39,566 nt of DNA, from assembly GCA_009776515.1 (NCBI GenBank), contig WRNP01000002.1, positions 1 through 39,566 of the forward strand, written 5' to 3'. The notes below the pieces were generated by a model. That model ran no database searches and was not told the origin of the DNA. It saw only the letters and a list, made by a program, of their open reading frames with translations. Source of the DNA: Dehalococcoidia bacterium (GTDB lineage: Bacteria; Chloroflexota; Dehalococcoidia; Dehalococcoidales; UBA1222). Made by a program: the position numbers and the translations under genes. This document shows, piece after piece, positions 1,012 to 36,485 of the stretch (its first letter is position 1; every line of letters begins with the position of its first letter).

Positions 1012-1109
1012 TTATGCGTGTAATACATGAGTTACGACCTATTTTCGGCCCCTCTCAGTCAGCGAGATCCTTAATAAAAACAGTATTTACCTAATGGCAA
1101 TGGTATGAA

Positions 1110-2213: not shown

Positions 2214-2310
2214 GCACAAAATTGCACATCGTGGCTCCGTTCGACAAACAACCTAATGGGGCAACTGCTTCCTTTTTACAGCGGTAATAATAACGATAAG
2301 GACGGAAAAA

Positions 2311-16680: not shown

Positions 16681-17669
16681 CCATGGGGAACTACACAGCC
16701 TCCTACCTTACTCTTTTCCGCTCCGGCGAGCTCAATAAGCGTGCCGCACGCCTTGCCGAGAGTCTATCATCCTGTGAGCTTTGTCCGCGCCGTTGCGGTG
16801 CTGTCCGTGCGCAGGGAGAGTTAGGGTTTTGCCGCTCCGGGGTACTCCCAGTTGTCTCTTCTTCTTGTGCCCATCACGGCGAGGAGCCAGTGCTTTCTGG
16901 CACCCACGGCTCGGGAACCATCTTCTTCGGCAACTGCAATCTGCGTTGCGCTTTCTGCCAAAACTATCAGATAAGCCAAGCTCCGGATCGGCAAAAAGTA
17001 AATGAGGTCAGCCTTGAAAGACTAGCGGAGATAATGCTCTCCCTCCAAGCCCAAGGTTGCCACAACATAAACCTCGTCTCGCCCACCCACTTCGTCCCAC
17101 AGATCGTTCAGGCACTAGCGTTGGCCGCACCGCAAGGCCTGAACATCCCTCTGGTCTATAACACCAACGCCTACGATAGCCTGACGACACTACGAGAGCT
17201 TAGCGGTATCATTGATATATACCTGCCAGATCTCAAGTATGCCACAGACGAGAACGCAGAGAAGTATTCTCAAGCTCCAAATTACCCGCAAACAGCGCGT
17301 GCGGCCATAAGGGAGATGTTCCGCCAGGTAGGCATACTAGAAACAGACACCGATGATATCGCGGAGCGCGGTGTAATCGTGCGCCACCTTATCCTACCAC
17401 ACAATGCGGCGGGAACCGAGGAGTCTCTCCAGTGGCTCGCGCACGAAGTCTCGCCTGACATCACCGTAAGCCTCATGAGTCAGTACTACCCCATCCACCG
17501 CGCCACACAGTACCCAGAGCTTGCACGCCCCATCACCGCAGCAGAGCATGCGGTAGCGGAGCGTTCGCTAGCAAAGGCGGGCATTGAGAACGGATGGGTG
17601 CAGGACCCAGCCTCACCAGAAAACTATTTGCCAGACTTCACGCGGCCTGGCCATCCCTTTGGAAGCTAG
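16677..17669 (+). CDS. radical SAM protein (PflX/COG1313-like activase family)
   Basis: It has the CX3CX2C motif GNCNLRCAFCQNYQ and an N-terminal CELCPRRC...FC motif. Confidence 0.8.
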   Translation: MTMGNYTASYLTLFRSGELNKRAARLAESLSSCELCPRRCGAVRAQGELGFCRSGVLPVVSSSCAHHGEEPVLSGTHGSGTIFFGNCNLRCAFCQNYQISQAPDRQKVNEVSLERLAEIMLSLQAQGCHNINLVSPTHFVPQIVQALALAAPQGLNIPLVYNTNAYDSLTTLRELSGIIDIYLPDLKYATDENAEKYSQAPNYPQTARAAIREMFRQVGILETDTDDIAERGVIVRHLILPHNAAGTEESLQWLAHEVSPDITVSLMSQYYPIHRATQYPELARPITAAEHAVAERSLAKAGIENGWVQDPASPENYLPDFTRPGHPFGS

Positions 17670-18034
17670 ATTATTCGCCATTTCGAATTGGTAATGCCAA
17701 TCTAAGGCTAGTAGCTTCAGAAACACCTTGTTTTCGCCCGTAGCTCATGCAAATTACGTTTAAACACCGGATTCTTGCATTGCTGGGCTATACAGACACT
17801 GCTGGTGATAACCGAGAACGGCGGTACCACCTAAGTTTCGGCCTGCTGATAATAATCCCTGCAATCAACAGGCCGTCTTTGCTTCCTCAAGTCAGCGAGG
17901 CGAGTCGTCTCATCTTGGCGCCGAAGCTAAGCTCCAACTCAATCCTCGGCATGCTATGATTAACCTACTTCTTTATTACTACTGCTACCATCCACCACGT
18001 TGCCACTTAGCTGGCAATCAGTGAGGCCGCGGTT

Positions 18035-18370
18035 CTAAAGCGTTATCGCCTGATCTACCCCTCCGACGCTACCGAGGGCACTGTACAGGTCGGGGAAGCA
18101 CCCGATGCCAGCTTTAGATACTAAGCTGTCGGCAATATTGCGCTGGTAACAACACTGGTCACAGCCCATCACCATCATGCCGGTTTTTTCCGCCAAGGCA
18201 TTAATGCGCTGCCCCAACGGGTTATTCTTCTCGATGAGCAAGGTGTTGTCAAACATAAAGAACATGCCGACCACGTTGGCACCATGACGATTATCCTCGA
18301 GTTGTGGCACGATCATCATCGCCAGAATATCAAACGACCTGGGGCTTTCAAAGATGTAAGCAACTTTCAC
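18035..18370 (-). CDS. DsrE/DsrF-like sulfur(selenium)-relay family protein
   Basis: 111 aa. MKVAYIF..., VVGMFFMFDN, MVMGCDQCCYQRNI and VDQAITL fit the DsrE-fold pattern. The gene diverges from the ABC/reductase operon. Confidence 0.55.
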   Translation of the reverse strand: MKVAYIFESPRSFDILAMMIVPQLEDNRHGANVVGMFFMFDNTLLIEKNNPLGQRINALAEKTGMMVMGCDQCCYQRNIADSLVSKAGIGCFPDLYSALGSVGGVDQAITL

Positions 18371-18424
18371 CGATACATTTTCCTTTCAATGTTTTATTTG
18401 CGATGCTTGTGCAAAGCTGCCTTG

Positions 18425-18454
18425 ATAATAGTGGTTCATAAGTTATTTTGTCAA
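18425..18454 (-). promoter_or_regulatory. candidate promoter of the DsrE-like gene
   Basis: On the minus strand: TTGACA (18454-18449), an 18-nt spacer, then TATTAT (18430-18425). It lies within an AT-rich 247-bp divergent region. Confidence 0.5.
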
Positions 18455-18476
18455 TATGGTTAAGTTCTGTTTATAG

Positions 18477-18486
18477 CATGCGCATG
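18477..18486. promoter_or_regulatory. perfect 10-bp palindrome CATGCGCATG between divergent promoters
   Basis: The sequence is self-complementary. It shares the 8-bp core ATGCGCAT with the palindrome at 210-219 upstream of arsR. Confidence 0.3.
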
Positions 18487-18529
18487 GGAAATTGGCCACT
18501 CTTTTGTCAGTAAAAAAACAATTTTTATA

Positions 18530-18558
18530 TTGACATTAAATATTCTTTATTGTATATT
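18530..18558 (+). promoter_or_regulatory. near-consensus sigma70 promoter of the 18.6-26.3 kb operon
   Basis: TTGACA (18530-18535), a 17-nt spacer, then TATATT (18553-18558). Confidence 0.6.
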
Positions 18559-18617
18559 CCTTATGGATTTGATAAGTAAAATTTAATAGCTGGGAATGCT
18601 CAAAGGATGGTGTTTCT

Positions 18618-19466
18618 ATGTCTCAGCTCTGCGTAGAAAGCGTAACCAAGGCTTATGCTAACAACAATAAGGAAAGGCATGTCGTTCTCAGAGATTTAAG
18701 TTTCGGCGTCAGAACGGGGGAGTTCGTATCGTTGCTTGGCCCATCGGGTTGCGGCAAGACAACCATCCTCCGCATCATCGCCGGCTTTTTGAAACCCACA
18801 AGCGGGCGGATTATGATCGGCGATGACGAAGTTACCCAACCCGGCCCTGACCGCGCTTTCGTTTTTCAATCTTATGGGCTGTTTCCCTGGATGACCATCA
18901 AGGCCAATATCCTTTACCCCATGCAGCAACAGAAGATGCCCCAACCAGAGCAGGAACAGCAACTTAACATGTTGCTGGCGTTAGCCAAATTGGAGGGCAA
19001 GGAGAAGCTTTATCCACACCAGCTTTCAGGCGGTATGCAGCAGAGAACAGCAGTAATTAGAGCGCTGGCCTGTCATCCCAAGGTACTCCTAATGGATGAG
19101 CCCCTGGGAGCAGTGGATATGCAGATGCGACACAAGTTGCAGGAGGACATGGAGCGTATCTTTATTGACAGCCCCGCCACCGTGGTCATGGTAACCCATG
19201 ATGTTGATGAGGCAGTGTTTATGAGCAACCGCATCTTGGTCATGTCCGACTGCGAAGGCAAGCTCGCCGGCGACCTGTCTATCCCCCTACCTCATCCTCG
19301 CAACCGCCACAGCCTAGAATATCAACAACTCGTGAGTAAGTTGGGCGACCTATTACAGAATATGCATCACGAAAAGGAAATCAGTGATTGGAACAATATA
19401 AAAAACATTATGGAGGAAATACCGATTGAAAGCAAAGCAGCCGACTGTTGCTGTAATGCCACATAA
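18618..19466 (+). CDS. ABC transporter ATP-binding protein, NitT/TauT (SsuB/TauB-like) family, with a Cys-rich C-terminal tail
   Basis: Walker A GPSGCGKTT, signature LSGGMQQRTAVIRAL and Walker B LLMDEPLGAVD are present. The C-terminus ends ...KAADCCCNAT. Confidence 0.9.
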   Translation: MSQLCVESVTKAYANNNKERHVVLRDLSFGVRTGEFVSLLGPSGCGKTTILRIIAGFLKPTSGRIMIGDDEVTQPGPDRAFVFQSYGLFPWMTIKANILYPMQQQKMPQPEQEQQLNMLLALAKLEGKEKLYPHQLSGGMQQRTAVIRALACHPKVLLMDEPLGAVDMQMRHKLQEDMERIFIDSPATVVMVTHDVDEAVFMSNRILVMSDCEGKLAGDLSIPLPHPRNRHSLEYQQLVSKLGDLLQNMHHEKEISDWNNIKNIMEEIPIESKAADCCCNAT

Positions 19467-19986
19467 TAGAGAGGGGTTCTGTGCACAGGGTAACCGCCCA
19501 AGAGCGCGGCTGAAGATTTGCCTGTTCGCTGTTAGCGCCTACTGTTTGATAATCGCGCTTATGTTAGCTGCTTGCGGCGGCACTTCCGACATACCACTAC
19601 TACCCGGCCTGCCAGAGGCTATTGCTTTTTGGCAAAAGCAGGCACCTGATGACGCATTGGTCTTATCCATCAGCGGCGATATCAACGGCGATCGGCGGCC
19701 TGATACTTTGATTATCTATCGGACACCGAGTGGGGAATGTCTGTTTATTGGCATACTTGACACCATAGATGGTTACCAACTAACAGACACCATCATGGCA
19801 CCGCTGGAAAACCAGGCGATGTTTATCCGCAATATTGGTGGCAACCAGTCTGTGGCAGTTTTCGTGTCGGGACAAAATGGAGATAAAGTAGGCCTTGGCT
19901 GCTTTCAGCTTATCGGAGCAGAGTGGATTAATCCGTTTGGCGGGGGAATTTTCGATGGCGATTATGCCGCTTGTTGCGGCTTATAA
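19456..19986 (+). CDS. hypothetical lipoprotein with an FG-GAP-like DxNGDxxxD motif
   Basis: The signal peptide has the lipobox LMLAAC. The motif ISGDINGDRRPD is present, and the C-terminus ends ...AACCGL. The start is uncertain (ATG 19456 or TTG 19426). Confidence 0.55.
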   Translation: MPHNREGFCAQGNRPRARLKICLFAVSAYCLIIALMLAACGGTSDIPLLPGLPEAIAFWQKQAPDDALVLSISGDINGDRRPDTLIIYRTPSGECLFIGILDTIDGYQLTDTIMAPLENQAMFIRNIGGNQSVAVFVSGQNGDKVGLGCFQLIGAEWINPFGGGIFDGDYAACCGL

Positions 19987-20232
19987 CGCTAAGTACCACT
20001 TGATGGAAGCGCTCATGCGCAATATAGACGCGGGATATTGGACTCGCTTGGCGTAAGTTGGGCGACTTACTCAAAATAGGTTGCCCGAAAAGAAAGGTGG
20101 TGCCCGGAACAATGCAGAAATTTCTTAATGTCAATACCGGTCGAGCGCAACAACGGCCGATTGTTGTTAAGGTGCCACATAAGTGTGGCATATCAAACAA
20201 AAATAAAATGTCTAACAGAAAGAGAGGCTATC

Positions 20233-21420
20233 ATGGGTACACCAAATAATGGCATCTATGCCAAGTCCGGCGGGTTATCACGCCGGGAATTTCTGAAAGA
20301 TGCCGGGCTCATTATCGGCGGTGCCGCTATAGGATCTATGACTTTCTTGAATTCCTGCAAAGGATCTGATGAGCCAACGGGCTCAAGCTCTGGTGTAACA
20401 ATGGATCCTTACACTGTCAATCTTCTTTACTACAATTGTGATCACATGACCCCTGGCCCCATTGGTTATGACCTTGGCATTTATCGTGAACTGGGTGTCA
20501 ACGTCAACATCAGCGGCAATGGCAATGTTCCAACCGCCTTCGCGGCCGGGCAGGGTGACATCGGCTATGTTGGAGTGGGTAACATTGAGATAGCTGCCGC
20601 TGGTGGTGCTCCGCTGACAGTGGTAGCCGACAATTTCCTAGGTGGCTCTTATTATTTGGTAGTCGCCAACAACATTGAATCTCCGGAGGAACTACTTGGC
20701 AAACGCCTAGCATTAGGAGACCGGCCAGAAATCAACAACTCCAGCTGGGTAGCGATGGCCAATGCTCTCGACCTGCCCATTGAGGGGGATAATTACCAGA
20801 CGTCCAGCATCTCCGGTGACTCCAACAAATTTCTGGCTTTGGCTGCCGGTCAGATTGACGGCTATACCTGCTGTGACCCCTGGGGGTCTATGGCAGTGTA
20901 CGAGAAAATAGGCAAGGCCATGGGTACTTTCCTTGACGTTTTACCCGGAAACCAAAAAGCCGATTGTTGCGGGCTGACCATGAATGATTCATTCATCAAA
21001 AACCACCGCGCGTTGGCCGTAAAAATGGTGCTAGGCCATACCCGGGCAATTGAAGCCATGTATATCCACCCCCTCAAGAGTGCGCTCAGTTTCGCTAAAA
21101 CCTATGGTGTGCCGCTTGAGGTAGCCATGATGACCGTCTACCGCAAGACCAATGGCGAAGGACGCATGATGACTTGGGATATGCACACTGAGCCGAATAT
21201 TGTAACCAGGCTCGATAACACTTTTAACTACTACAAAGACATAGGCATGACCCAGTACCAAACATTGGTTCCCGCCACAACATTCGTCGACTCAACACTA
21301 CTGGATGAATGTGGGGCCAACGATTTTAATACATTTATCACAACCCAGGTTGATCCGGTGTACCCGCTGGGCATGTCATACGATGACTGGTACAAAAAGG
21401 CTCTAGAGACGGATGTCTAG
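20233..21420 (+). CDS. Tat-signal lipoprotein, ABC substrate-binding protein (NMT1/SsuA/TauA-like)
   Basis: ATG 20233 follows AGAGAGG. It has the twin-arginine motif SRREFLKDAG and the lipobox FLNSC. The periplasmic-binding-fold sequence contains two vicinal Cys pairs (YTCCDPWG and KADCCGL). Confidence 0.8.
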   Translation: MGTPNNGIYAKSGGLSRREFLKDAGLIIGGAAIGSMTFLNSCKGSDEPTGSSSGVTMDPYTVNLLYYNCDHMTPGPIGYDLGIYRELGVNVNISGNGNVPTAFAAGQGDIGYVGVGNIEIAAAGGAPLTVVADNFLGGSYYLVVANNIESPEELLGKRLALGDRPEINNSSWVAMANALDLPIEGDNYQTSSISGDSNKFLALAAGQIDGYTCCDPWGSMAVYEKIGKAMGTFLDVLPGNQKADCCGLTMNDSFIKNHRALAVKMVLGHTRAIEAMYIHPLKSALSFAKTYGVPLEVAMMTVYRKTNGEGRMMTWDMHTEPNIVTRLDNTFNYYKDIGMTQYQTLVPATTFVDSTLLDECGANDFNTFITTQVDPVYPLGMSYDDWYKKALETDV

Positions 21421-21721
21421 CCTCAGGCACCTTGGGCAGCGAGCAATGACAGAAAGCGCAACGGGCAGCTTTTCTTCGAATTGCCATTATGCCAACTTCC
21501 GACTAGCTTTGGCGCGATGGGGAGGGCAATATGTCACGACCCGCCCGGTGCCTCTCTTGACGAAAGAGCGCCCTGGTCGCCTTTCTATACCATATACCAG
21601 CAATATCGTTTTCTGGAACTGGGCAACAAGTAAGCTAGCGACCACTTGTGATCTAGACTGCTGTGGCTTTGGACTGACCGGCAATCACATAGCAAGCCGT
21701 GAGCGCCAGGGAGGAGTGTGA
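21413..21721 (+). CDS. hypothetical 102-aa ORF filling the binding-protein/permease gap
   Basis: The ATG overlaps the upstream stop (ATGTCTAG), and the ORF fills the whole ~300-nt gap. It contains CDLDCCGFG. I recognise no domain and the composition is atypical, so it may be non-coding. Confidence 0.3.
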   Translation: MSSLRHLGQRAMTESATGSFSSNCHYANFRLALARWGGQYVTTRPVPLLTKERPGRLSIPYTSNIVFWNWATSKLATTCDLDCCGFGLTGNHIASRERQGGV

Positions 21722-21724
21722 TTC

Positions 21725-22567
21725 GTGGAATCAGAACCGCGTCCGGTTTTTAATGCCAGTGCAACATTTGAAAAGCTGAAAAATACGGTCCTCGTTGGCG
21801 ATCGCGGGCGCCGCTTTCCTCAGCTTCACTGGCTGATAACGTTAGGTGTGATTTTCATAATTTGGCAGATGGCAGCCATGCGTTTCAACAACAAACTGCT
21901 GATGCCAACTCCTTGGGCTACCATTCAAGCTCTGGCATCCGCCGTGCATGATGCCGAGATACTGCAAGGTCTTGTTTACACCATGAGGCGCATCCTCATC
22001 GGGTTCTTGCTCGCCTGTGCCATAGGTTTGCCCCTTGGCTTTGCCATGGGGTATTCCAGGACTTTTCTTAAGTTCCTTGACCCCATTATCAACTCCGTCC
22101 GCCTAATCCCGATGATGGCATGGGTTCCCTTGAGCATCGTATGGTTCGGCTTGGGAGATGGTCCTTCCGTTTTCATGATTACCTTGGTTGGTATCTTCCC
22201 CATCATGCTCAGCACCATCGCCGGTGTACACGAAATTTCCCCCGACTATTACCATGCCGCACGCAGTATGGGCGCTTCGCGGTGGGGCATTTTTCGCAAT
22301 GTCATTATGCCGGGGTCACTGCCCGGTATTTTAACAGGCCTGCGCCTGGCGCTGGGAAATGGGTGGATGGCCGTCATATGAGCGGAGTTCATTGCCACCC
22401 AGTTTGGGTTTGGCCACGCAATGGTTTGGTACCAAACACTGCTTCGGACTGACATGGTGATGGCGCTAATGATTATGGCAGGTATGATCGGCTTCACCAT
22501 CGACCGCAGTATGCTGTTTCTCAATCGCAAGGCATCCAAGTGGAAATATGTTCAGGCCGCTGAATAG
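21725..22567 (+). CDS. ABC transporter permease (TauC/SsuC-like) interrupted by an in-frame TGA at 22379-22381
   Basis: GTG 21725 lies 8 nt after GGGAGGAG. The same frame continues past the TGA as AEFIATQFGFGHAMVWYQTLLRTDMVMALMIMAGMIGFTIDR..., the expected C-terminal part of a BPD-type permease. Total length is 280 codons. Confidence 0.75.
22394..22414 (+). other. stem-loop 13 nt downstream of the TGA at 22379 (candidate SECIS-like element)
   Basis: GCCACCC (22394-22400) pairs with GGGT..GGC (22406-22414) with a 2-nt bulge; the loop is AGTTT. Folded by eye only. Confidence 0.2.
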
Positions 22568-22579
22568 GGAGGAAGCATC

Positions 22580-23776
22580 ATGATTAATCCGTCAACACTT
22601 GAAGAGTACACCCAGTTAAGGCCCACCAGTCTAGAGGCATTTGAAATGCTACGGCGTGACAATGCCTCTATCCTGCTCCGTGAAAAGGAAAAGGGCAAGC
22701 GCATCATCGGGGCATATTGCACCTATTTCCCCCGCGAATTGGCCCAGGCCATGGGGGCCATCTATGTCGGTTTATGCGGCACTATTGATGCCCCGATTGC
22801 CGCTGCAGAGAAAGATCTGCCGCGCAATCTATGCCCTCTGATCAAATCTTCATACGGACTAGCTATAACCGACCGCTGTCCCTATTTCGTCATGGCCGAC
22901 ATGATCATCGGTGAAACCACTTGCGACGGCAAGAAGAAGATGTTTGAATTACTCAGCGAAAAGGGCTTAAAAAACATCTACGTCATGCACTTGCCGCAAG
23001 TACCGGATGAACCATCGTCGCTGGCGCTGTGGATATCCGAGTTACGTCGCCTGAGGACGTATCTCGAAAGCACCTTTGGGGTCACCATCACCGACGAGTC
23101 GTTACGCGAAGCCATCCATCTCACCAACGAGGAGGCCCGTGCCCGCCAGGCTATGTTCGACCTCAATAAACGCAAGCCGGCGGTACTCTCTGGTATGGAT
23201 ATGGTCAACATCACTTTTCTGACCGGATTCCAAGCCGACCGCCAAGAATCGATCCGCATGGTAGATGCCGTTACAGCAGAACTAACGGAAAAAGCCAATA
23301 ATGGGTATGCGGTGGGCACGCTCTTAACCAAGCGCATCCTATTAACTGGCACCCCCGTAGGTATCGGAAACGAAAAGGTGGTAAAGCTGGTGGAAGAAGC
23401 TGGGGCGCTCATCGTCGCCAAGGAGACCTGCGGCGGCTACAAAACCGTTGGGTTGCGCATTGATGAAAACGACCCCCGTGATCCAATCGTGCTATTAGCC
23501 GAAAAATACCTCAAGATCCCATGTTCGGTGATGTCTCCAAACGGTGACCGCCTGGGGCTACTGGAACGCATGGTGAAAGACTTCCAAGTCGATGGCGTAA
23601 TAGACCTGACATGGCAGGCCTGCCACACCTATAATGTAGAATCTTACGCCGTCGCCAAACTTGTTGAAGAAAAGTTAAGGCTGCCGTTCCTGCACTTAGA
23701 AACGGACTATTCCCAGTCAGACACAGAAACGCTCAGGGTGCGCATTGAGGCGTTTTTGGAAACCATTAATAACTAA
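22580..23776 (+). CDS. 2-hydroxyacyl-CoA dehydratase / benzoyl-CoA reductase B/C-family protein (single-subunit, double-cubane-cluster-protein-like)
   Basis: 398 aa with the family's scattered Cys ligands (AYCTYFP, GLCGT, NLCPLIK, DRCPYF, ETTCDGKKK, ETCGGYK, IPCSV, QACHTYN). It is followed by a cognate activase. Confidence 0.8.
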   Translation: MINPSTLEEYTQLRPTSLEAFEMLRRDNASILLREKEKGKRIIGAYCTYFPRELAQAMGAIYVGLCGTIDAPIAAAEKDLPRNLCPLIKSSYGLAITDRCPYFVMADMIIGETTCDGKKKMFELLSEKGLKNIYVMHLPQVPDEPSSLALWISELRRLRTYLESTFGVTITDESLREAIHLTNEEARARQAMFDLNKRKPAVLSGMDMVNITFLTGFQADRQESIRMVDAVTAELTEKANNGYAVGTLLTKRILLTGTPVGIGNEKVVKLVEEAGALIVAKETCGGYKTVGLRIDENDPRDPIVLLAEKYLKIPCSVMSPNGDRLGLLERMVKDFQVDGVIDLTWQACHTYNVESYAVAKLVEEKLRLPFLHLETDYSQSDTETLRVRIEAFLETINN

Positions 23777-23787
23777 AACCTTGTAGC

Positions 23788-23865
23788 CGCTTAGTTTATC
23801 AGACACCATCATAGGCAATGATGTTTGCAGCTATTATGGTGTTGGCGCACCTGATAAGCTAAGCG
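23788..23865 (+). other. long intergenic hairpin (15-bp stem) inside the operon
   Basis: CGCTTAGTTTATCAG (23788-23802) pairs with CTGATAAGCTAAGCG (23851-23865). All 15 positions pair in plus-strand RNA, one as a G-U pair. The 48-nt interior has its own 7-bp helix, 23803-23809 with 23836-23842. Confidence 0.5.
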
Positions 23866-23956
23866 ACGGCCAATACTGGTTGCTGGTAGCTAAAAACGGC
23901 GCGCCGCACAGTATACTCAAAAAAAATATAGCGATCCTACATAACAAAGGCGGGTT

Positions 23957-24232
23957 ATGAATAATGCAGAGATAAAAAGATGGGCATACCATGGTGACAG
24001 CATCATAATTTTCACTGAGCCATACGAAACCATCAGGGCTAATAAGCTACTACAGTCCTTTGGATTAGATGCCAAAATCGTATCACCGCACCCAAAATTG
24101 AGAATGGGCTGCTGTGCGCTGGGGCTGGAAATCAGCCTAACACAAAAAGCAGACATTGAACTTCTTTTTAAAAACCATGATATTGGTTATCACCAAATAA
24201 TAGAAAACCACGCAATGGGACACGGATCTTAG
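23957..24232 (+). CDS. DUF3343-family small protein (Pfam family annotated, from memory, as putative Se/S carrier-like)
   Basis: 91 aa. IIIFTEPYETIRANKLLQSFGLDAKIVSPHPKLRMGCCALGLEI fits the DUF3343 pattern, with its conserved Cys-Gly-type loop here as GCC. Confidence 0.6.
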   Translation: MNNAEIKRWAYHGDSIIIFTEPYETIRANKLLQSFGLDAKIVSPHPKLRMGCCALGLEISLTQKADIELLFKNHDIGYHQIIENHAMGHGS

Positions 24233-25003
24233 ATGCTTGTCTCAGGATTGGACGTGGGATCGCGCACCATCGCCCTGGTCGAATGGGATGGTGTCCAGGT
24301 GGTGCGAGAGGAGGTTGTCTTCACCGGCACCAGCCCGCTGGAAAATTCTCAAAAACTCACCAGGGGACGGCACTACGATCGTATGATAGCCACGGGCTAC
24401 GGTCGTCACTTCATCACCGAACATAGCTTGGCAGACGGCGTCATAACCGAAATCAAAGCCTATGCCCTGGGTGCCAAACAGCTTTTTCCCGATGCCCACA
24501 CCGTACTAGATATCGGCGGGCAAGATAGTAAAGTCATCCTGATGAGTGGCAACGGCAACGTTATCAAGTTTGAAATGAATGACCGCTGCGCTGCTGGCAC
24601 AGGGCGATTCTTGGAGAACATGGCTTCTGCTCTCGGCCTGAGCGTTGCGGAGTTGGGGGTCCACGCATTGCGTGCCGAGAAAAGTATCCCCCTTTCCAGC
24701 ATGTGCACCGTTTTCGCCGAAAGCGAAGTCGTTTCACTGATTGGGCAAGGCGCAGACAGCCACTGTGTGGCGCTTGGTATTCATGAGGCTATTGTTAACC
24801 GGATTAATGCAGTCGTACAAAGAGTCGGAATAAATCCTAGTTTCGTATTCGCCGGAGGGGTGGCTTACAACCCATGCATGCGCAAGTTGTTGGCCGAAAA
24901 ACTATGCCCTGAAATAAATGTCCCGTCCGACCCCCAGACCGTGGGCGCACTGGGGGCAGCTATCCAAGCACAAAACGATCTGCAGAAAGGACAGGCGTCA
25001 TGA
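24233..25003 (+). CDS. BcrA/BcrD/HgdC-type ATPase activase (CoA-substrate-specific enzyme activase family)
   Basis: It has the acetate/sugar-kinase-fold motifs GLDVGSRT and LDIGGQDSKV, and the two cluster-bridging cysteines NDRCAAGTG and SSMCTVFAES. It starts directly after the upstream stop and overlaps the next gene in an ATGA junction. Confidence 0.9.
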   Translation: MLVSGLDVGSRTIALVEWDGVQVVREEVVFTGTSPLENSQKLTRGRHYDRMIATGYGRHFITEHSLADGVITEIKAYALGAKQLFPDAHTVLDIGGQDSKVILMSGNGNVIKFEMNDRCAAGTGRFLENMASALGLSVAELGVHALRAEKSIPLSSMCTVFAESEVVSLIGQGADSHCVALGIHEAIVNRINAVVQRVGINPSFVFAGGVAYNPCMRKLLAEKLCPEINVPSDPQTVGALGAAIQAQNDLQKGQAS

Positions 25004-26034
25004 CATATTGGAGCGATGCCCTGGGCCGAGCTTGGAGTTTCCTCGCCGCATTTTTCTCGCCGGGAGTAGTCGTCGGACTTTGTTTTGCCTTTCTCCTGGC
25101 CGGAGCTATCAATATTTTCATCCCAAAATCCCTAGTAATAAAATACCTTGGAGATGGTTCCAACAAATTCCTGGCCTACTCCGTGGTCATCATAGCAGGA
25201 ATACTGCTCTCAGTCTGATCATGCACTGCTATACCGCTGTTCAGCAGTATTCGTAAACGTGGAGCCGGCCTGGGGCCAGCCATAGCCTTTTTACTGGCAG
25301 CCCCCGCGCTGGATATCGTCCCCATAGTACTTACCTTCAAGGTGATGGGTACGGTTATGGGTTGGATGCATGTACTGGGCGTAGCTGCCTTTAGTGTCAT
25401 CATGGGTTTTGCCATGCAAGCCATTTTCCGAGAAAGCCCCGAGGCATCTGCCACTAAGCTCGCGGCTGTACCTGATACCGAGATTGCTAAGCCATGGTGG
25501 ACTCACAGTATTTTTTTCGGGCTATTGATATTGGCTCTGGTCTTTGCTCTTGATGGAAACTGGCTCGCCTTAGGATGCGCCCTGATAACCTTGCTCGCTG
25601 TCCTGTTCCGTTTATATTCCAAAGAGGACTGCAAGGCATGGATTGGCGCTTCCGGCCAATTCATCAGAAGTATATTGCCATGGCTGTTGATTGGTTCCGT
25701 AGGAGCCGCCATCGTGGCCGGACTCTTGCCAAGCGCCCTGGTGCTCAGGCTGGCCGGCGGCAGCTCTCTGCAGTCTTCATTCACAGCTTCGTTTCTCGGC
25801 ACTCTACTTTATGTTTGCCCTCCCTCTGAGGTAATGTTCGCCAGGGCATTTGTTGACCTCGGTATGGGCATGGGGCCGGCTCTGGCTTTCCTGATCACGG
25901 CACCTGCTATTTCATTGCCTAGTATCATAATACTGAATCGCGTCATTGGATGGAAAAAAACTTTGACAAACACCATAATGTTAATATGCCTGGCGGCCCT
26001 GCTCGGTTTCGTACGCGGGTTTATAGTAGCATGA
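25000..26034 (+). CDS. ArsP/DUF318-family permease with an in-frame TGA at 25216-25218 on the first Cys of the CSC motif (probable selenoprotein)
   Basis: The two ORF-track pieces (25000..25218 and 25342..26034) are in the same frame, and no other stop lies between them. The read-through gives ...IIAGILLSV-U-SCTAIPLFSSIRKRGAGLGPAIAFLLAAPALD. This is the family core motif, which I recall as vCSCg.vP....G...g.a.aFL.a.P. The protein's own second half has Cys at the equivalent spot (YVCPPSE...GMGPALAFLITAPAIS). Confidence 0.75.
25225..25248 (+). other. stem-loop 7 nt downstream of the TGA at 25216 (candidate SECIS-like element)
   Basis: ACTGCT (25225-25230) pairs perfectly with AGCAGT (25243-25248). 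The 12-nt loop is ATACCGCTGTTC. Folded by eye only. Confidence 0.25.
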
Positions 26035-26047
26035 CCCAGGAGGAAAT

Positions 26048-26311
26048 ATGGTAACCATCAGGGTGTTTACCTCAATCCCCAGCTGACCATCGTGTGACTC
26101 GGAAGAGAAAAAGGCTCGCCGCGTCGCCTCAAAATTCCCCGTCGGGGAAGTACAAGTACTCACTTTCACAGCTATGTCTGAAGAGGGGGAGAAATACAAC
26201 ATTTTCCTTACTCCCGCAGTCATGGTGGATGACCGGATCATTTCTGCAGGGAAAGGCATATCTGAAAAAGAAATAGAAAAGGCAGTAGGCCAAGTAATAA
26301 ACAGAGTTTGA
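26048..26311 (+). CDS. thioredoxin-fold protein (redox-active disulfide protein 2 / MTH895-ArsE-like) with TGA at the first position of the CxxC motif (UxxC, probable selenoprotein)
   Basis: It is missing from the ORF track because of the TGA at 26084-26086. AGGAGG lies 4 nt upstream of ATG 26048. The translation is MVTIRVFTSIPS-U-PSCDSEEKKARRVASKFPVGEVQVLTFTAMSEEGEKYNIFLTPAVMVDDRIISAGKGISEKEIEKAVGQVINRV. The spacing of beta1-CxxC and the ...TPAvmvdg..i..G..s..EI tail matches the ~80-aa family. Confidence 0.7.
26094..26127 (+). other. composite stem-loop 8 nt downstream of the TGA at 26084 (candidate SECIS-like element)
   Basis: GTGAC/GTCGC, CGG/CCG and GAG/CTC helices are separated by small internal loops. 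The apical loop is AAAAAGG. Folded by eye, and weak. Confidence 0.2.
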
Positions 26312-26331
26312 TCCGTGAACCAGGATCAAAC
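26306..26331 (+). terminator. hairpin at the operon end (9-bp stem, no T tract)
   Basis: GTTTGATCC (26306-26314) pairs with GGATCAAAC (26323-26331). The hairpin overlaps the stop codon of the thioredoxin-fold gene. Confidence 0.4.
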
Positions 26332-26448
26332 CAAGGGGATTGTTAGGAAACCAAGATTATCTGCGGGTGAAAGCGTCCCGCTTTTTGCCTGTCGAGTTAA
26401 CCTACAGACGACATGATTGATTAGTGTCCGATGATATCACAAAACAAC

Positions 26449-26474
26449 ACCGAGAGGCTCAATGGCCTCTCGGT
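26449..26474 (-). terminator. intrinsic terminator for the small minus-strand gene
   Basis: ACCGAGAGGC (26449-26458) and GCCTCTCGGT (26465-26474) form a 10-bp stem. On the minus strand it is followed by GTTGTTTTGTG. Confidence 0.6.
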
Positions 26475-26509
26475 ATGCCTGTCACTGAATAGCCTACGGC
26501 AGATTATAA

Positions 26510-26725
26510 CTAACAGGCTTTACGCTTGCGACGCACAAAATGAAATTCAATACGGCGACCATTACGGGGAGTCCCCTGCTTGGCGGTGTTTTCGATAAAG
26601 GACTTCATTTCTTCTGGGGTAAGTTGATCACCTTTTTTCGGTTCGGCTTTGGCTGTTTTTGGCAAGGTGGCACTCCGTCTGTATAGAATTGACTCTATTA
26701 TAGCAGGACCCAAGTCCGCTGCCAA
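26510..26725 (-). CDS. small basic hypothetical protein
   Basis: A terminator lies downstream. A better-supported start is the TTG at 26665, 7 nt after GGAG, giving the 51-aa product MPKTAKAEPKKGDQLTPEEMKSF...RRKRKAC. I recognise no family. Confidence 0.35.
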   Translation of the reverse strand: MAADLGPAIIESILYRRSATLPKTAKAEPKKGDQLTPEEMKSFIENTAKQGTPRNGRRIEFHFVRRKRKAC

Positions 26726-31365: not shown

Positions 31366-31551
31366 GCCCGAGACAGAACCCAGCCATTTCTTCCTTCAAC
31401 CCCGCCATCGCTTATGTGTGTAGTAGATGCCACTTTCTTTGTGCGAGTACCCCCCAACAAGAGGAACGACTCGGTAGTTTATCAAAAACGGTCCGTTTTC
31501 GACTTCGTGCCTATTGCGACATCTTAAAAACGCAACCAGATGCCCCACCCC

Positions 31552-31580
31552 TTGACGCCAGAGCGAATCCGAGTAATAAT
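31552..31580 (+). promoter_or_regulatory. candidate promoter of the cytochrome gene
   Basis: TTGACG (31552-31557), a 17-nt spacer, then AATAAT (31575-31580). Confidence 0.35.
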
Positions 31581-31614
31581 ACTCCTTACCGAACACTTGA
31601 TTAAGGAGGGTGAT

Positions 31615-32964
31615 ATGCCTGCACACCGCACCGCCAAATTGTCGGTAGCTTTTGCCGCCACTCTCATTGCCGCCCTTGTACTTGGCTTCTCCTCGGGCGA
31701 AAAAGTTGCCGCCCAGGACGAGAGTGACTGTATCACCTGTCACGCCACGGAGACCCCGGGCGTCGTGGAACAGTGGCTTGGAAGCAAGATGTCAGAATGG
31801 TTTGACTGTAGCATGTGCCATGGGGTCGCCCACTCAACCAATGACGATGTCGATAAGGTCAATCTGCCCACCCCCAGCACCTGCGCCCCCTGCCATAGGA
31901 CTCAGGTAGAGCAGTACCGTGAGGGCAAGCATGCCCTAGCTTGGACTGCCATGAACGCCATACCGTTTGTAGCGCAAATGCCGGAATCTCTCGGGGGGGC
32001 TGATGGCTTCAAGGGTTGCTCCGGATGTCACAAGATCGGCGAGAAGACCGAGGAAGTCATGCAGGACTGGGATGCCCCTTACGGTAGCGCTTCCTGCGAC
32101 TCCTGCCATACCCGCCACCTCTTTAGCAAGGCTGAGGCACAAGACCCACGCGCCTGCCAGCTATGTCATATCGGCTTTGATCACCCGCAGTGGGAAACTT
32201 GGTCCACCGCCAAACATGGCTCCATCTGGGCCATAGAAGAAGATTCGGGCCGCACCCCCACTTGCCAGAATTGCCACCTGCCAAATGGCACCCACACTAA
32301 CATCACCGCCTGGGGCTTCTTGGCGTTGCGAGCTTATGCTGAAGATGACCCCGCCTGGCAGGCCGATCGGGAAACCATCCTCAAGGCCCTAGGGGTGCTG
32401 GATGCCCAGGGGAATCCCACCGAACTGCTGGATGCCCTGGTCGGCATCAACCTAGTGCGCACCACTGAGGAGGAATTTATGGCTCTCCGCAACCAGATGA
32501 CAGCCATCTGCGGGGAGTGCCACTCATCCGGGTTCGTTGAACAGCAGATGAATGCCAACGATGATCTCATCCGTCGGGCTGACAGTATGATGGCCGAAGC
32601 CATTGATGTGGTGAACGGCCTTTATAAAGACGGCTTCCTGGCAAAACCGACTGGCTGGGACTACGCGCCAGATCTCCTCCAATTCTATAACACTGAAAGC
32701 AATATCGAAAACGAACTGTTTACCATGTTCCTACAGTACCGCCAGCGCACTTTCGTAGGCGCTATCCATGCCAATCCCGACTACACATACTGGTACGGCT
32801 ACGCCTCTATGCAGAAATCACTCCAGACGATAAAGGATGAGGCGGAGCTCCTGCGAGCGACCAAGGACGGGACATCGCCCAGTAGCACCGTCGGCTACGT
32901 TGCATTGGGGCTGGGAGTTCTGGCGCTCCTCGCCGGCGGTTTTGCTCTCATACGTCGACATTAG
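31615..32964 (+). CDS. octaheme c-type cytochrome, hydroxylamine-oxidoreductase-like family, with a C-terminal TM anchor
   Basis: ATG 31615 lies 4 nt after AAGGAGGG and is followed by a signal peptide. There are eight CxxCH motifs (CITCH, CSMCH, CAPCH, CSGCH, CDSCH, CQLCH, CQNCH, CGECH). GFDHPQWE and HANPDYTYWYG are reminiscent of HAO-type proteins. The C-terminal helix is VGYVALGLGVLALLAGGFALI. Confidence 0.8.
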   Translation: MPAHRTAKLSVAFAATLIAALVLGFSSGEKVAAQDESDCITCHATETPGVVEQWLGSKMSEWFDCSMCHGVAHSTNDDVDKVNLPTPSTCAPCHRTQVEQYREGKHALAWTAMNAIPFVAQMPESLGGADGFKGCSGCHKIGEKTEEVMQDWDAPYGSASCDSCHTRHLFSKAEAQDPRACQLCHIGFDHPQWETWSTAKHGSIWAIEEDSGRTPTCQNCHLPNGTHTNITAWGFLALRAYAEDDPAWQADRETILKALGVLDAQGNPTELLDALVGINLVRTTEEEFMALRNQMTAICGECHSSGFVEQQMNANDDLIRRADSMMAEAIDVVNGLYKDGFLAKPTGWDYAPDLLQFYNTESNIENELFTMFLQYRQRTFVGAIHANPDYTYWYGYASMQKSLQTIKDEAELLRATKDGTSPSSTVGYVALGLGVLALLAGGFALIRRH

Positions 32965-35611: not shown

Positions 35612-35757
35612 CAGTCGCGTTTTTTCCTAACCCTAACGGTCAGACCGAGCAGGGTGCCCAAATGTTGGGAACCCCATTTTATTGTTAGAGGAGGTAACCA
35701 CCAAGAAAACATCGCGCCATGGAAAACATTGAAAGAAAAAACACAAAGGAGCAACAG

Positions 35758-36483: not shown

Positions 36484-36485
36484 CT

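What the first reader, a model, noticed from the sequence alone, without database searches (positions are those of the whole stretch)
22580..25003. Stand-alone HgdB/BcrB-family Fe-S protein plus activase, with a DUF3343 gene inserted between them
The 398-aa protein is a single-subunit member of the 2-hydroxyacyl-CoA dehydratase / benzoyl-CoA reductase family. No partner HgdA-like subunit and no CoA-transferase or CoA-ligase gene is present.

This is the architecture of the double-cubane cluster proteins, whose physiological substrates are unknown.

Its cognate ATPase is separated from it only by a 91-aa DUF3343 protein carrying a GCC motif. As far as I recall, that family is annotated as putative Se/S carrier-like.

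The context is also atypical for acyl-CoA chemistry. An ABC importer lies upstream, and a Sec-containing permease and a thioredoxin-fold protein lie downstream. This argues for a small inorganic or organo-chalcogen substrate.
Basis: partly seen in the sequence, partly recalled or inferred. Interest (0 to 1): 0.7.

Follow-up and report, generated by a model that had tools for sequence, protein, structure and literature searches.

The report
Double-cubane reductase inside a selenoprotein transport operon
The three genes are a double-cubane iron-sulfur reductase, a small cysteine-bearing selenium/sulfur carrier and the reductase's ATP-driven activator, sitting in the middle of a variant of the published "SAO" selenoprotein transport operon, so the find is real but mostly a new variant of a known, still uncharacterised system.

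Summary
ORF 22580-23776 is a double-cubane cluster protein (DCCP): NCBIfam NF040772 scores 488 bits against a cutoff of 350. ORF 23957-24232 is a Pfam Se_S_carrier (formerly DUF3343) with a G-C-C motif. ORF 24233-25003 is the activase.

The gene order is saoD | saoA-saoC-saoX-saoP(Sec)-DCCP-DUF3343-activase-ArsP-type permease(Sec)-thioredoxin-like protein(Sec). DCCP plus activase next to SAO loci is already published.

What is new here:
- The DCCP module is embedded between the importer and the efflux permease.
- SaoB and SaoL are absent.
- The permease and the thioredoxin-like protein fall outside the SaoE and SaoT models, and both are selenoproteins.
- A carrier gene occupies the slot between DCCP and activase. 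A related metagenomic cassette has SaoD in that slot.

Among 80 related DCCP loci, only one has DUF3343 between the pair. However, 14 carry a DUF3343 gene, and 29 carry some Se/S-relay gene.

The most likely role is ATP-driven, low-potential reduction of an imported chalcogen- or metalloid-containing compound, with Cys/Sec relay of the heavy atom. The mechanism is inferred, not shown.

The parts
18035..18370 (-). saoD-like DsrE-related small Cys protein (CDQCC motif), transcribed divergently from the main operon
   Evidence: NF040732 SaoD is the best hit at 157 bits, just under the cutoff of 169. It is syntenic with L001.
18618..19466 (+). saoA, the ABC transporter ATPase, with a C-terminal D-C-C-C-N-A-T tail
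   Evidence: NF040729 SaoA scores 369 bits (cutoff 360). A sigma-70-like promoter lies at 18530-18558.
19426..19986 (+). saoC-like extracytoplasmic lipoprotein ending in ...A-C-C-G-L
   Evidence: NF040734 SaoC scores 70.6 bits (cutoff 80) and is the only hit.
20128..21420 (+). saoX, the NMT1/SsuA-type substrate-binding protein with a TAT signal and a D-C-C-G motif. The true start is probably near 20233.
   Evidence: NF040735 SaoX scores 402 bits (cutoff 300). A TAT signal is detected.
21725..22567 (+). saoP, the ABC permease selenoprotein. The Sec codon TGA is at 22379-22381 (W-M-A-V-I-U-A-E-F).
   Evidence: With U replaced by C, NF040733 'ABC_perm_U' scores 352 bits (cutoff 295). The same in-frame TGA occurs in L001, L053 and L055, and Cys occupies that position in L088.
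22580..23776 (+). Double-cubane cluster protein (DCCP), 398 aa, with Cys at positions 47, 66, 85, 100, 115, 284, 315 and 348
   Evidence: NF040772 scores 488 bits (cutoff 350). PDB entries 7YYL and 6ENO match at 261 bits, and all eight Cys are aligned. Cys spacing is given.
23788..23866 (+). Long imperfect hairpin in the 180-nt spacer between DCCP and DUF3343. Its function is unknown.
   Evidence: The fold of 23774-23960 gives -56.3 kcal/mol with z = -2.3. L001 has only a 41-nt spacer here.
23957..24232 (+). Se_S_carrier (DUF3343) protein, 91 aa, with a vicinal Cys52-Cys53 pair in a predicted exposed loop
   Evidence: PF11823 scores 32 bits (gathering score 25). The AlphaFold2 model has mean pLDDT 74.6 and a beta-alpha-beta-beta-alpha-beta topology.
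24233..25003 (+). ATP-dependent electron-transfer activase (DCCP reductase). Its start codon abuts the DUF3343 stop codon.
   Evidence: TIGR00241 scores 217 bits. PDB relatives are MbdQ, HadI, HgdC and DCCP-R at 157-184 bits, with the C-A-A-G-T-G and C-T-V-F-A-E cluster-Cys motifs aligned.
25000..26034 (+). ArsP_1-family permease selenoprotein. The Sec codon is at 25216-25218 (S-V-U-S-C). A SECIS-like hairpin lies at 25231-25250. Its ATG overlaps the activase stop codon (ATGA).
   Evidence: Pfam ArsP_1 matches on both sides of the TGA. The SaoE model scores 87 bits (cutoff 325) and the SO_0444 model 94 bits (cutoff 300). An 8-bp hairpin with a GUUC/GGUC loop is conserved in six orthologues.
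26048..26311 (+). Thioredoxin-like selenoprotein, 87 aa. The Sec codon is at 26084-26086 (U-P-S-C). A hairpin lies at 26094-26127.
   Evidence: The best hit is the MTH895/ArsE family at 35.5 bits (cutoff 62). The SaoT model scores only 16 bits (cutoff 65). The in-frame TGA is conserved in seven loci, and L088 has C-P-S-C.

Best explanation
The three genes are a homodimer-type double-cubane [8Fe-9S] reductase (DCCP), a small thiol-based Se/S carrier (DUF3343), and the DCCP's ATP-hydrolysing electron-injecting partner (the activase). They are co-transcribed inside a variant SAO operon.

Proposed mechanism (steps 2 and 3 are inferred; only family assignments and gene linkage are shown):
1. The SaoA/SaoP(Sec)/SaoX importer, helped by the SaoC lipoprotein, brings in a small compound that contains a soft chalcogen or metalloid atom, such as Se, As or Hg.
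2. The activase uses ATP to push low-potential electrons into the DCCP, which reduces the compound.
3. The heavy atom or its adduct passes along a relay of vicinal Cys/Sec sites. These are DUF3343 (G-C-C), SaoD (C-x-x-C-C) and the U-P-S-C thioredoxin-like protein. The relay ends at the U-S-C ArsP-type permease for export, or in selenium assimilation.

Operon structure:
- The gap from saoP to DCCP is 12 nt.
- The DUF3343 stop codon abuts the activase start codon.
- The activase stop codon overlaps the permease start codon.

Conservation of the arrangement:
- L001, a Dehalococcoidia MAG with 82% DCCP identity, has the same gene order.
- L082 has DCCP-DUF3343-activase, and L083 has DUF3343-activase.
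- L088 and L089, all-Cys versions, have SaoA-C-X-B-P-DCCP-SaoD-activase-ArsP-Trx. This is followed directly by an SclA-like cysteine desulfurase/Sec lyase, Se_S_carrier and YedF.

The carrier is tied to the permease/thioredoxin pair:
- In five further contexts, a DUF3343, SaoD or YedF gene directly precedes the ArsP-type permease and thioredoxin-like pair.
- Four of these five also carry a MerB-like lyase, and three an ArsR-type regulator.

The carrier family is tied to S/Se transfer:
- P0011 is a NifS-like::Se_S_carrier fusion.
- Canonical contexts contain YedE and TusA.
- Published work places duf3343 among genes linked to selD and Sec lyase.

DCCP loci are enriched for such relay genes:
- 29 of 80 loci hold DUF3343, YedF, SclA-like, YedE or SaoD. 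In 21 of them the gene lies within 500 nt of a DCCP or activase gene.
- 11 of 22 second DCCP paralogues have Se_S_carrier immediately downstream.

Published support:
- 21 of 52 SAO species have a DCCP within 5 kb, and 955 of 970 DCCPs occur in SelD-containing genomes.

Motif pattern:
- Every non-enzyme component here has a vicinal Cys/Sec motif.
- The DUF3343 clade gained its second Cys through a one-residue insertion relative to canonical members.
Against: - No substrate, metal or selenium binding is demonstrated for any component, here or in the literature read.
- Within the window's own DCCP clade, 51 of 52 adjacent DCCP-activase pairs have no carrier gene between them. A carrier is therefore not generally needed for DCCP function.
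- The closest relative, L001, has G-C-A instead of G-C-C, and P0005 has G-S-C. The vicinal pair is therefore not essential.
- The window lacks SaoB and a MerB-like SaoL. The efflux permease and thioredoxin-like protein fail the SaoE and SaoT models. Transfer of the SAO model is therefore by analogy.
- The transport direction of the ArsP-type permease is assumed.
Confidence: 0.55

Rival explanations
1. Cofactor maturation. DUF3343 is a persulfide or perselenide carrier that supplies the bridging ninth sulfide of the [8Fe-9S] cluster, or a selenium analogue of it. It would not be handling substrate.
For: - Se_S_carrier lies immediately downstream of 11 of 22 second DCCP paralogues.
- A NifS-like::Se_S_carrier fusion exists, and SclA-DUF3343 pairs occur next to DCCP modules.
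- Haft & Gwadz list a Se-bridged cluster as a formal possibility.
Against: - 51 of 52 adjacent DCCP-activase pairs in the window's clade lack an adjacent carrier.
- The same DUF3343 clade sits in ArsR-DUF3343-ArsP(Sec)-Trx(Sec)-MerB mini-cassettes with no DCCP on the contig.
- SaoD, a different fold, occupies the same slot in L088.
- From my own knowledge, not tested here: the Carboxydothermus DCCP assembled its cluster when produced in E. coli.
Confidence: 0.12
2. Resistance operon. The module detoxifies an organometal(loid) such as methylmercury or a trivalent organoarsenical. The DCCP reduces it, and the carrier, thioredoxin-like protein and permease expel it.
For: - Mini-cassettes have an ArsR-type regulator, a MerB-like lyase, an ArsP-type permease and a thioredoxin-like protein.
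- ArsP_1 is the organoarsenical exporter family.
- The window also carries an ArsR-ArsC fusion, an Acr3-type transporter and a methyltransferase at 292-3186.
Against: - A dedicated high-affinity importer with Sec at the gate is co-transcribed, which is unexpected for resistance. Haft & Gwadz make the same argument.
- No regulator gene lies in the window's cassette.
- Linkage to Sec-lyase, YedF and YedE genes points to selenium or sulfur trafficking.
Confidence: 0.2
3. The protein is the beta subunit of a genuine 2-hydroxyacyl-CoA dehydratase or class I benzoyl-CoA reductase, with partners encoded elsewhere.
For: It shares the Pfam family HGD-D and an archerase-type activase.
Against: - HadC scores 90 bits (cutoff 700), BzdN 82 bits (cutoff 454) and BcrC 43 bits (cutoff 421), whereas NF040772 scores 488 bits (cutoff 350).
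- PDB DCCP matches at 261 bits, against 64-81 bits for MbdN, BzdN and HadC.
- No alpha subunit is present in 39.5 kb.
- The gene is translationally embedded between transporter genes.
Confidence: 0.02
4. The position of DUF3343 between DCCP and activase is a neutral, lineage-specific rearrangement. The carrier serves only the permease and thioredoxin-like pair and has no functional link to the DCCP.
For: - Only 1 of 80 genome loci shares the insertion.
- Elsewhere the clade directly precedes the ArsP-type permease without a DCCP.
Against: - The arrangement persists at 52-61% carrier identity in L001, L082 and L083.
- An unrelated small Cys carrier, SaoD, fills the same slot in L088 and L089.
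- Other DCCP paralogues independently have DUF3343 or YedF adjacent.
Confidence: 0.1

Closest known systems
SAO (selenocysteine-assisted organometallic) locus with adjoining double-cubane protein and activase (Haft & Gwadz 2022/2023; example: Clostridium botulinum saoTECXLBPAD plus DCCP)
   Same: - SaoA, SaoP (with Sec at the gating position) and SaoX pass their NCBIfam cutoffs.
- SaoC- and SaoD-like genes are present.
- DCCP plus activase lie within the locus.
- CC/CU-type motifs run throughout, and the setting is anaerobic.
   Different: - SaoB and SaoL are absent.
- The efflux permease and thioredoxin-like protein do not match the SaoE and SaoT models, and both are selenoproteins. The paper states that SaoE is never a selenoprotein.
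- The DCCP module is embedded between importer and exporter genes rather than adjoining the cassette.
- A Se_S_carrier gene is part of the operon. That family is not mentioned in the preprint of the paper read here.
- The closest relative is a Dehalococcoidia MAG, a group the preprint does not mention.
DCCP / DCCP-R of Carboxydothermus hydrogenoformans (PDB 6ENO, 7YYL; Jeoung & Dobbek)
   Same: - Alignment is full-length at 261 bits.
- All Cys are aligned.
- A dedicated ATPase partner is encoded nearby.
   Different: - The spacing of two Cys intervals differs by 1-2 residues from the published 7-Cys motif: X18 instead of X19, and X30 instead of X32-34.
- Here the pair is split by a carrier gene and flanked by transporters.
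YedE/YedF/DUF3343/Sec-lyase selenium gene neighbourhoods (Lin et al. 2015; Slackia heliotrinireducens Shel_25420-25470)
   Same: - The carrier belongs to the same Pfam family.
- In Slackia, DUF3343 genes also lie beside an activase and an HgdB-like gene, visible in the paper's STRING table.
- L088 and L034 join the same genes to DCCP modules.
   Different: - The window's carrier belongs to a small divergent clade, with 16 hits at E <= 1e-3 among 1.84 billion representatives.
- The clade has a one-residue insertion that creates G-C-C.
- No YedE, YedF, SelD or Sec-lyase gene is in the window.
ArsP organoarsenical efflux permease and SO_0444 Cu/Zn efflux family (Pfam ArsP_1)
   Same: - The Pfam family is the same.
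- The conserved C-S-C motif is present as U-S-C, a form known in some SO_0444 members.
   Different: - It scores far below both curated models, at 94 bits (cutoff 300) and 87 bits (cutoff 325).
- It is always paired with a U/CxxC thioredoxin-like gene and preceded by a small S/Se-relay gene.

Membership tests
Double-cubane cluster protein (NF040772) | Score above the curated equivalog cutoff | tested here: met
   488.2 bits against a cutoff of 350, covering the full-length profile.
Double-cubane cluster protein (NF040772) | Conserved cluster-ligand cysteines (published 7-Cys motif CX19CX18-19CX29CX166-170CX32-34CX32C) | tested here: met
   Cys 47, 66, 85, 115, 284, 315 and 348 give CX18CX18CX29CX168CX30CX32C. 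All of them, plus Cys100, align to Cys in 7YYL. Two spacings are off by 1-2 residues.
Double-cubane cluster protein (NF040772) | Dedicated archerase-type ATPase encoded alongside, and no HgdA-like second subunit | tested here: met
   The activase lies 456 nt downstream (TIGR00241, 217 bits). No other HGD-D homologue is found in the window.
Double-cubane cluster protein (NF040772) | [8Fe-9S] cluster and ATP-dependent reduction of small molecules | not testable with these tools
   This needs anaerobic purification, spectroscopy and activity assays.
2-hydroxyacyl-CoA dehydratase / class I benzoyl-CoA reductase | Match to a characterised subunit model, and presence of the partner subunit and CoA-activating enzyme | tested here: not met
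   HadC scores 90 bits (cutoff 700), BzdN 82 (cutoff 454), BcrC 43 (cutoff 421) and HadB 20 (cutoff 750). No partner or CoA-transferase gene is present.
Se_S_carrier / DUF3343 (PF11823) | Score above the Pfam gathering threshold | tested here: met
   32.0 bits against 25, covering profile positions 3-68 of 69. Clade relatives score 26-38 bits.
Se_S_carrier / DUF3343 (PF11823) | Family-wide conserved Cys | tested here: met
   The Cys column is more than 90% conserved in the 16-sequence alignment and invariant in the 15 locus-derived members.
Se_S_carrier / DUF3343 (PF11823) | Actual binding or transfer of Se or S | not testable with these tools
   No member has been characterised in the literature searched.
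SAO system (Haft & Gwadz) | SaoA, SaoP (Sec or Cys at the gate) and SaoX importer | tested here: met
   SaoA scores 369 bits (cutoff 360), SaoP 352 (cutoff 295) with TGA at the family's Sec position, and SaoX 402 (cutoff 300).
SAO system (Haft & Gwadz) | SaoC and SaoD | tested here: inconclusive
   SaoC scores 70.6 bits (cutoff 80) and SaoD 157 (cutoff 169). Each is the best or only hit but falls just below the cutoff.
SAO system (Haft & Gwadz) | Second binding protein SaoB (CU/CC motif) | tested here: not met
   tblastn with three SaoB sequences finds no match in the window. The 304-nt saoX-saoP spacer holds no remnant. L088 has SaoB at 233 bits.
SAO system (Haft & Gwadz) | MerB-like lyase SaoL (not universal in the family) | tested here: not met
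   No tblastn match in the window. L001 has a SaoL-like gene at 106 bits (cutoff 140).
SAO system (Haft & Gwadz) | SaoE efflux permease and SaoT thioredoxin-like protein | tested here: not met
   SaoE scores 87 bits (cutoff 325) and SaoT 16 bits (cutoff 65). Analogous ArsP_1 and MTH895/ArsE-like proteins occupy these positions.
Bacterial selenoprotein genes (three in this operon) | In-frame UGA conserved among orthologues, Cys in other orthologues, conserved coding downstream, and a SECIS-like hairpin | tested here: met
   The TGA is conserved in 4 loci (SaoP), 6 loci (ArsP-type) and 7 loci (thioredoxin-like). L088 has Cys at all three sites. An 8-bp hairpin with a G(U/G)UC loop lies at +16 to +35 of the permease UGA. 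No Rfam SECIS hit was found, and single-sequence fold z-scores are not significant.

The most novel reading that the evidence does not exclude
The physiological substrate of this DCCP, and perhaps of many NF040772 DCCPs, is not a free small molecule. It is a chalcogen or metalloid adduct carried on the cysteine(s) of a small relay protein (DUF3343, SaoD or YedF). An example would be protein-S-Se(0), a polyselenide or an organoselenium/arsenic adduct. The ATP-driven double-cubane cluster would reduce it to release selenide or an exportable species. This would make DCCPs the missing low-potential reductases of prokaryotic selenium trafficking.
Probability: 0.2. Interest if true: 0.85.

Novelty: new variant of a known kind. 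Interest (0 to 1): 0.5.

Why it matters
Two open questions meet in this locus:
- DCCPs have had no known physiological substrate since their discovery in 2018.
- The SAO system is a purely bioinformatic hypothesis.

Here the DCCP module is wired directly between a Sec-gated importer and a Sec-containing exporter. A Se/S carrier is translationally coupled to the activase. Related loci swap that carrier for SaoD, or append Sec-lyase, DUF3343 and YedF genes.

This narrows the search for the substrate to soft chalcogen or metalloid species. It also names a small, easily purified protein, DUF3343, as the likely handle for pull-downs, metal/Se analysis and reconstituted assays. In addition, it extends selenoprotein-containing SAO-like systems to a Dehalococcoidia-related lineage.

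Tried and rejected
- Rfam found nothing in the whole window at gathering thresholds. An E <= 10 scan of 17500-26600 gave only chance-level hits and no SECIS or riboswitch.
- The tRNA scan found none.
- Single-sequence folding downstream of the three UGA codons gave non-significant z-scores. Sec decoding was therefore argued from orthologue conservation and alignment folds instead.
- PDB sequence search with DUF3343 found nothing.
- Foldseek of the AlphaFold2 model against the PDB found only generic ferredoxin-like, PII and ACT folds, with best E = 7e-3. No structural homologue can be claimed.
- Two metagenome-contig scans, one with the DUF3343 clade and one with the permease, returned no relatives.
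- The word-index protein search with DUF3343 found only 3 proteins. The exhaustive search found 16.
- Single-sequence phmmer detected DUF3343 in only 3 of 80 loci. An iterated profile, checked against Pfam, was needed to find it in 14 loci.
- I looked for a SaoB remnant in the saoX-saoP spacer and for any MerB-like gene in the window. Neither is present.
- The published J Bacteriol version of the SAO paper is not held. Statements about that paper therefore rest on the bioRxiv version.
- I rejected the acyl-CoA dehydratase reading. I also rejected the idea that the G-C-C pair is strictly conserved, because L001 has G-C-A.


Full report
**1. Observation**

The three ORFs are present exactly as described.

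- ORF 22580-23776 (398 aa) matches Pfam HGD-D at E = 4e-111.
  - It matches the NCBIfam equivalog NF040772, 'double-cubane-cluster-containing anaerobic reductase', at 488 bits (cutoff 350).
  - Models for characterised dehydratase and benzoyl-CoA reductase subunits score far below their cutoffs: HadC 90 (cutoff 700), BzdN 82 (cutoff 454), BcrC 43 (cutoff 421).
  - Its best solved relatives are the Carboxydothermus DCCP entries 7YYL and 6ENO, at 261 bits (E about 1e-76). MbdN, BzdN and HadC score 64-81 bits.
  - All eight of its cysteines align with cysteines of that structure.
- ORF 23957-24232 (91 aa) passes Pfam PF11823 Se_S_carrier, the renamed DUF3343, at 32 bits (gathering score 25). It contains R-M-G-C-C.
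- ORF 24233-25003 is an archerase-type activase.
  - TIGR00241 scores 217 bits.
  - PDB relatives MbdQ, HadI, HgdC and DCCP-R score 157-184 bits.
  - Both cluster-ligand Cys motifs are present.
- No other HGD-D homologue and no CoA-transferase or CoA-ligase gene occurs among the window's ORFs.

**2. What surrounds it**

NCBIfam identifies the neighbours as the SAO (selenocysteine-assisted organometallic) system.

| Gene | Coordinates | Best model and score |
|---|---|---|
| saoD-like | 18035-18370, minus strand | SaoD, 157 bits (cutoff 169) |
| saoA | 18618-19466 | SaoA, 369 bits (cutoff 360) |
| saoC-like | 19426-19986 | SaoC, 70.6 bits (cutoff 80) |
| saoX | 20128-21420 | SaoX, 402 bits (cutoff 300) |
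| saoP | 21725-22567 | 'ABC_perm_U', 352 bits (cutoff 295) when the in-frame TGA at 22379-22381 is read through |

Downstream of the activase lie two more genes with in-frame TGA codons.

- The first is an ArsP_1 permease (25000-26034), with TGA at 25216-25218 in the motif S-V-U-S-C.
- The second is an 87-aa thioredoxin-like protein (26048-26311), with TGA at 26084-26086 in the motif U-P-S-C.
- Neither passes the SaoE or SaoT model. SaoE scores 87 bits (cutoff 325) and SaoT 16 bits (cutoff 65). The best hits are the SO_0444/SaoE-like and MTH895/ArsE-like families, both below cutoff.

The genes from saoA to the thioredoxin-like gene form one tightly packed unit.

- The gap from saoP to DCCP is 12 nt.
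- The DUF3343 stop codon TAG abuts the activase ATG.
- The activase TGA overlaps the permease ATG.
- Sigma-70-like divergent promoters lie between saoD and saoA.

Housekeeping genes flank the cassette. On the left are gatA, lspA, rluD, gltX and a radical-SAM gene. On the right are fpg and polA.

**3. Are the TGA codons selenocysteine?**

Several lines of evidence support Sec decoding, although it is not proven.

- TGA is also a true stop codon here, for example in the activase and the thioredoxin-like gene, so the genetic code is standard.
- The same in-frame TGA, followed by conserved in-frame coding sequence, recurs in orthologues:
  - SaoP in L001, L053 and L055.
  - The permease in L001, L081, L087, L090 and L093.
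  - The thioredoxin-like gene in L001, L087, L090, L091, L092 and L093.
- An all-Cys version of the cassette, L088, has Cys at all three positions: V-I-C-A-E-F, S-V-C-S-C and T-C-P-S-C.
- An 8-bp hairpin with a G(U/G)UC loop lies 16-35 nt after the permease UGA in all six orthologues, with one compensatory pair. The thioredoxin-like gene has a hairpin at +11 to +44 with two covarying pairs.
- Single-sequence fold statistics and Rfam gave no support.

**4. What is already published**

- Haft & Gwadz (bioRxiv 10.1101/2022.07.06.499078) defined the nine-gene SAO locus.
  - They showed that SaoP carries Sec at the gating position.
  - They reported that 21 of 52 SAO species encode a DCCP, with its activase, within 5 kb.
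  - They found that 955 of 970 DCCPs lie in SelD-containing genomes.
  - They proposed that the imported compound is reduced by the DCCP before C-metal cleavage and efflux.
  - They state that SaoE is never a selenoprotein.
  - They do not mention DUF3343, YedE, YedF, Sec lyase or Chloroflexi.
- Lin et al. 2015 proposed DUF3343 as a Se/S-trafficking chaperone linked to YedF and Sec lyase. Their STRING table for Slackia lists an activase and an HgdB-like gene beside two DUF3343 genes.
- duf3343 is among the genes that most often overlap selD.
- A later preprint draws DCCP/DCCPR within selenium gene clusters.
- I found no experimental function for DUF3343, or for any DCCP in vivo.

**5. How common is the arrangement?**

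A scan of one genome per species with the window's DCCP returned 80 loci at 47-82% identity.

- The best hit, L001, is a Dehalococcoidia MAG and is syntenic from saoD to the thioredoxin-like gene.
  - It includes DUF3343 between DCCP and activase.
  - It also has a SaoL-like MerB relative that the window lacks.
- Of the 80 first-clade DCCP genes, 52 have the activase directly adjacent, and only L001 has a gene between them.
- Short metagenomic contigs add two more examples: DCCP-DUF3343-activase (L082) and DUF3343-activase (L083).
- An iterated profile, confirmed member by member against Pfam, found 15 Se_S_carrier ORFs in 14 of the 80 loci.
  - In 11 of these, the ORF lies immediately downstream of a second DCCP paralogue.
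  - There are 22 such paralogues in all, and the seven tested all pass NF040772 at 475-520 bits.
  - The typical order is DCCP-activase-DCCP2-DUF3343, as in Syntrophomonas-type loci.
- YedF-like genes occur in 14 loci, often right after the activase. SclA-like desulfurase/Sec-lyase genes occur in 6, YedE in 3 and SaoD in 4.
- In total, 29 of 80 loci hold at least one such relay gene, and in 21 it lies within 500 nt of a DCCP or activase gene.
- The sample is biased towards relatives of one DCCP, and many loci are phylogenetically close. These are counts of loci, not of independent events.

**6. The carrier and the slot it occupies**

The window's DUF3343 belongs to a small, divergent clade.

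- It has 16 hits at E <= 1e-3 among 1.84 billion representative proteins, and 3 at E <= 1e-10.
- Relative to canonical members (R-x-G-C-[DE]-L), the clade has a one-residue insertion that gives G-C-C-A-L.
  - Five of seven members have C-C.
  - L001 has C-A and P0005 has S-C.
- An AlphaFold2 model has mean pLDDT 74.6 and a beta-alpha-beta-beta-alpha-beta fold, with the Cys pair in the loop between strands 2 and 3. No PDB structure matches specifically.
- One relative, P0011, is fused to a NifS-like desulfurase.

Contexts retrieved through relatives of the Sec permease are the most informative.

| Locus | Gene order |
|---|---|
| L088 / L089 | SaoA-SaoC-SaoX-SaoB-SaoP(Cys)-DCCP-SaoD-activase-ArsP(CSC)-Trx(CPSC), then SclA-like, Se_S_carrier, YedF |
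| L087, P0003 contig, L092 | (ArsR)-DUF3343-ArsP-Trx-MerB-like |
| L090 / L091 | ArsR-SaoD-MerB-like-ArsP(Sec)-Trx(Sec) |
| L093 | YedF-ArsP(Sec)-Trx(Sec) |

Two patterns follow.

- The slot between DCCP and activase holds either DUF3343 or SaoD.
- The position in front of the permease and thioredoxin-like pair holds DUF3343, SaoD or YedF.

These are three different small Cys-bearing relay proteins in equivalent places.

**7. Interpretation**

The following points are shown:
- the family identities;
- the operon structure;
- conservation of the module;
- the recurrent linkage of DCCP modules to Se/S-relay genes.

The mechanism is inferred.

- The NitT/TauT-type importer with Sec at its gate brings in a small compound that contains a soft chalcogen or metalloid.
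- The activase-energised DCCP reduces it.
- The heavy atom is handled by a Cys/Sec relay of DUF3343, SaoD and the U-x-x-C thioredoxin-like protein.
- It ends at the U-S-C permease or in selenium assimilation.

Every non-enzyme component in the operon carries a vicinal Cys/Sec motif:
- SaoA tail C-C-C
- SaoC C-C
- SaoX C-C
- SaoP U
- DUF3343 C-C
- permease U-S-C
- thioredoxin-like protein U-P-S-C
- SaoD C-x-x-C-C

Rival readings are a cofactor-maturation role for the carrier, a resistance operon, and a functionally neutral gene position. They are weighed in the rival-explanations section. The acyl-CoA dehydratase reading is rejected.

**8. Verdict**

- The finding is a new variant of a known but experimentally untouched system, not a new kind of system.
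- Its value is as a compact, testable arrangement. It also provides evidence that small Se/S carriers are regular companions of DCCP modules.

Noticed in passing
window 292-3186: This looks like an arsenic-type gene cluster. It holds an ArsR (HTH_5)::low-molecular-weight phosphatase (ArsC-like) fusion, an SBF/Acr3-type transporter, and a SAM methyltransferase that may be ArsM-like. It lies about 15 kb from the SAO-like operon, which contains an ArsP-family permease.
   Followed up: no
window 19334-19467 and 20051-20183: An imperfect direct repeat of about 135 nt flanks saoC. The 3' end of saoA, including the codons for its C-C-C tail, is repeated just upstream of saoX. This suggests saoC was inserted or the junction was duplicated.
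   Followed up: partly
window 21421-21724: A 304-nt non-coding spacer lies between saoX and saoP, where L001 has about 35 nt and L088 has the saoB gene. No SaoB remnant is detectable by tblastn. A 102-aa ORF here has no family match.
   Followed up: partly
window 23774-23960: The 180-nt DCCP-DUF3343 spacer folds into a long hairpin (23788-23866) and a second stem (-56 kcal/mol, z = -2.3). L001 has only 41 nt here, and Rfam finds no match. It could be a processing or attenuation element, or an inserted repeat.
   Followed up: partly
window 18618-19466 (C-terminus): The ABC ATPase SaoA ends in a ...A-A-D-C-C-C-N-A-T extension beyond the region matched by the SaoA model (residues 4-249 of 282). 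A triple-Cys tail is unusual on a cytoplasmic ATPase.
   Followed up: no
L088 8248-10297 (also L089 2573-4622): An all-Cys SAO-like cassette with embedded DCCP-SaoD-activase is followed directly by three selenium-trafficking genes. These are an SclA-like cysteine desulfurase/Sec lyase, a canonical Se_S_carrier, and YedF (TIGR03527, 225 bits). This joins the SAO system physically to the classical selenium-trafficking trio.
   Followed up: partly
L034 4549-11884 and L068: The gene order is YedE, a two-domain DUF3343 protein (a Se_S_carrier domain plus a roughly 100-aa C-terminal domain with G-G-G-C-P and H-T-L-C-G motifs), a Carb_kinase-like protein, DCCP2, an FmdE-like protein, DCCP1 and the activase. 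The C-terminal domain has no NCBIfam match.
   Followed up: partly
P0010 (188 aa): This protein combines a Se_S_carrier domain with a weak Pfam Csm2_III-A match (36 bits). It is an odd pairing and may be a chance hit.
   Followed up: no
window 31540-32964 and 35719-38711: A multi-haem c-type cytochrome (474 aa) has weak hydrazine-dehydrogenase and NrfH-like matches. A two-gene xanthine-dehydrogenase-family molybdoenzyme is also present, with an Fe-S subunit carrying a 100-aa N-terminal extension and a 741-aa Mo subunit. Sub-threshold hits include the selenium-dependent hydroxylase models.
   Followed up: no
window 5189-6133: This ORF has a sub-threshold match to the archaeal presenilin-family intramembrane aspartyl protease model (66 bits, cutoff 125).
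   Followed up: no
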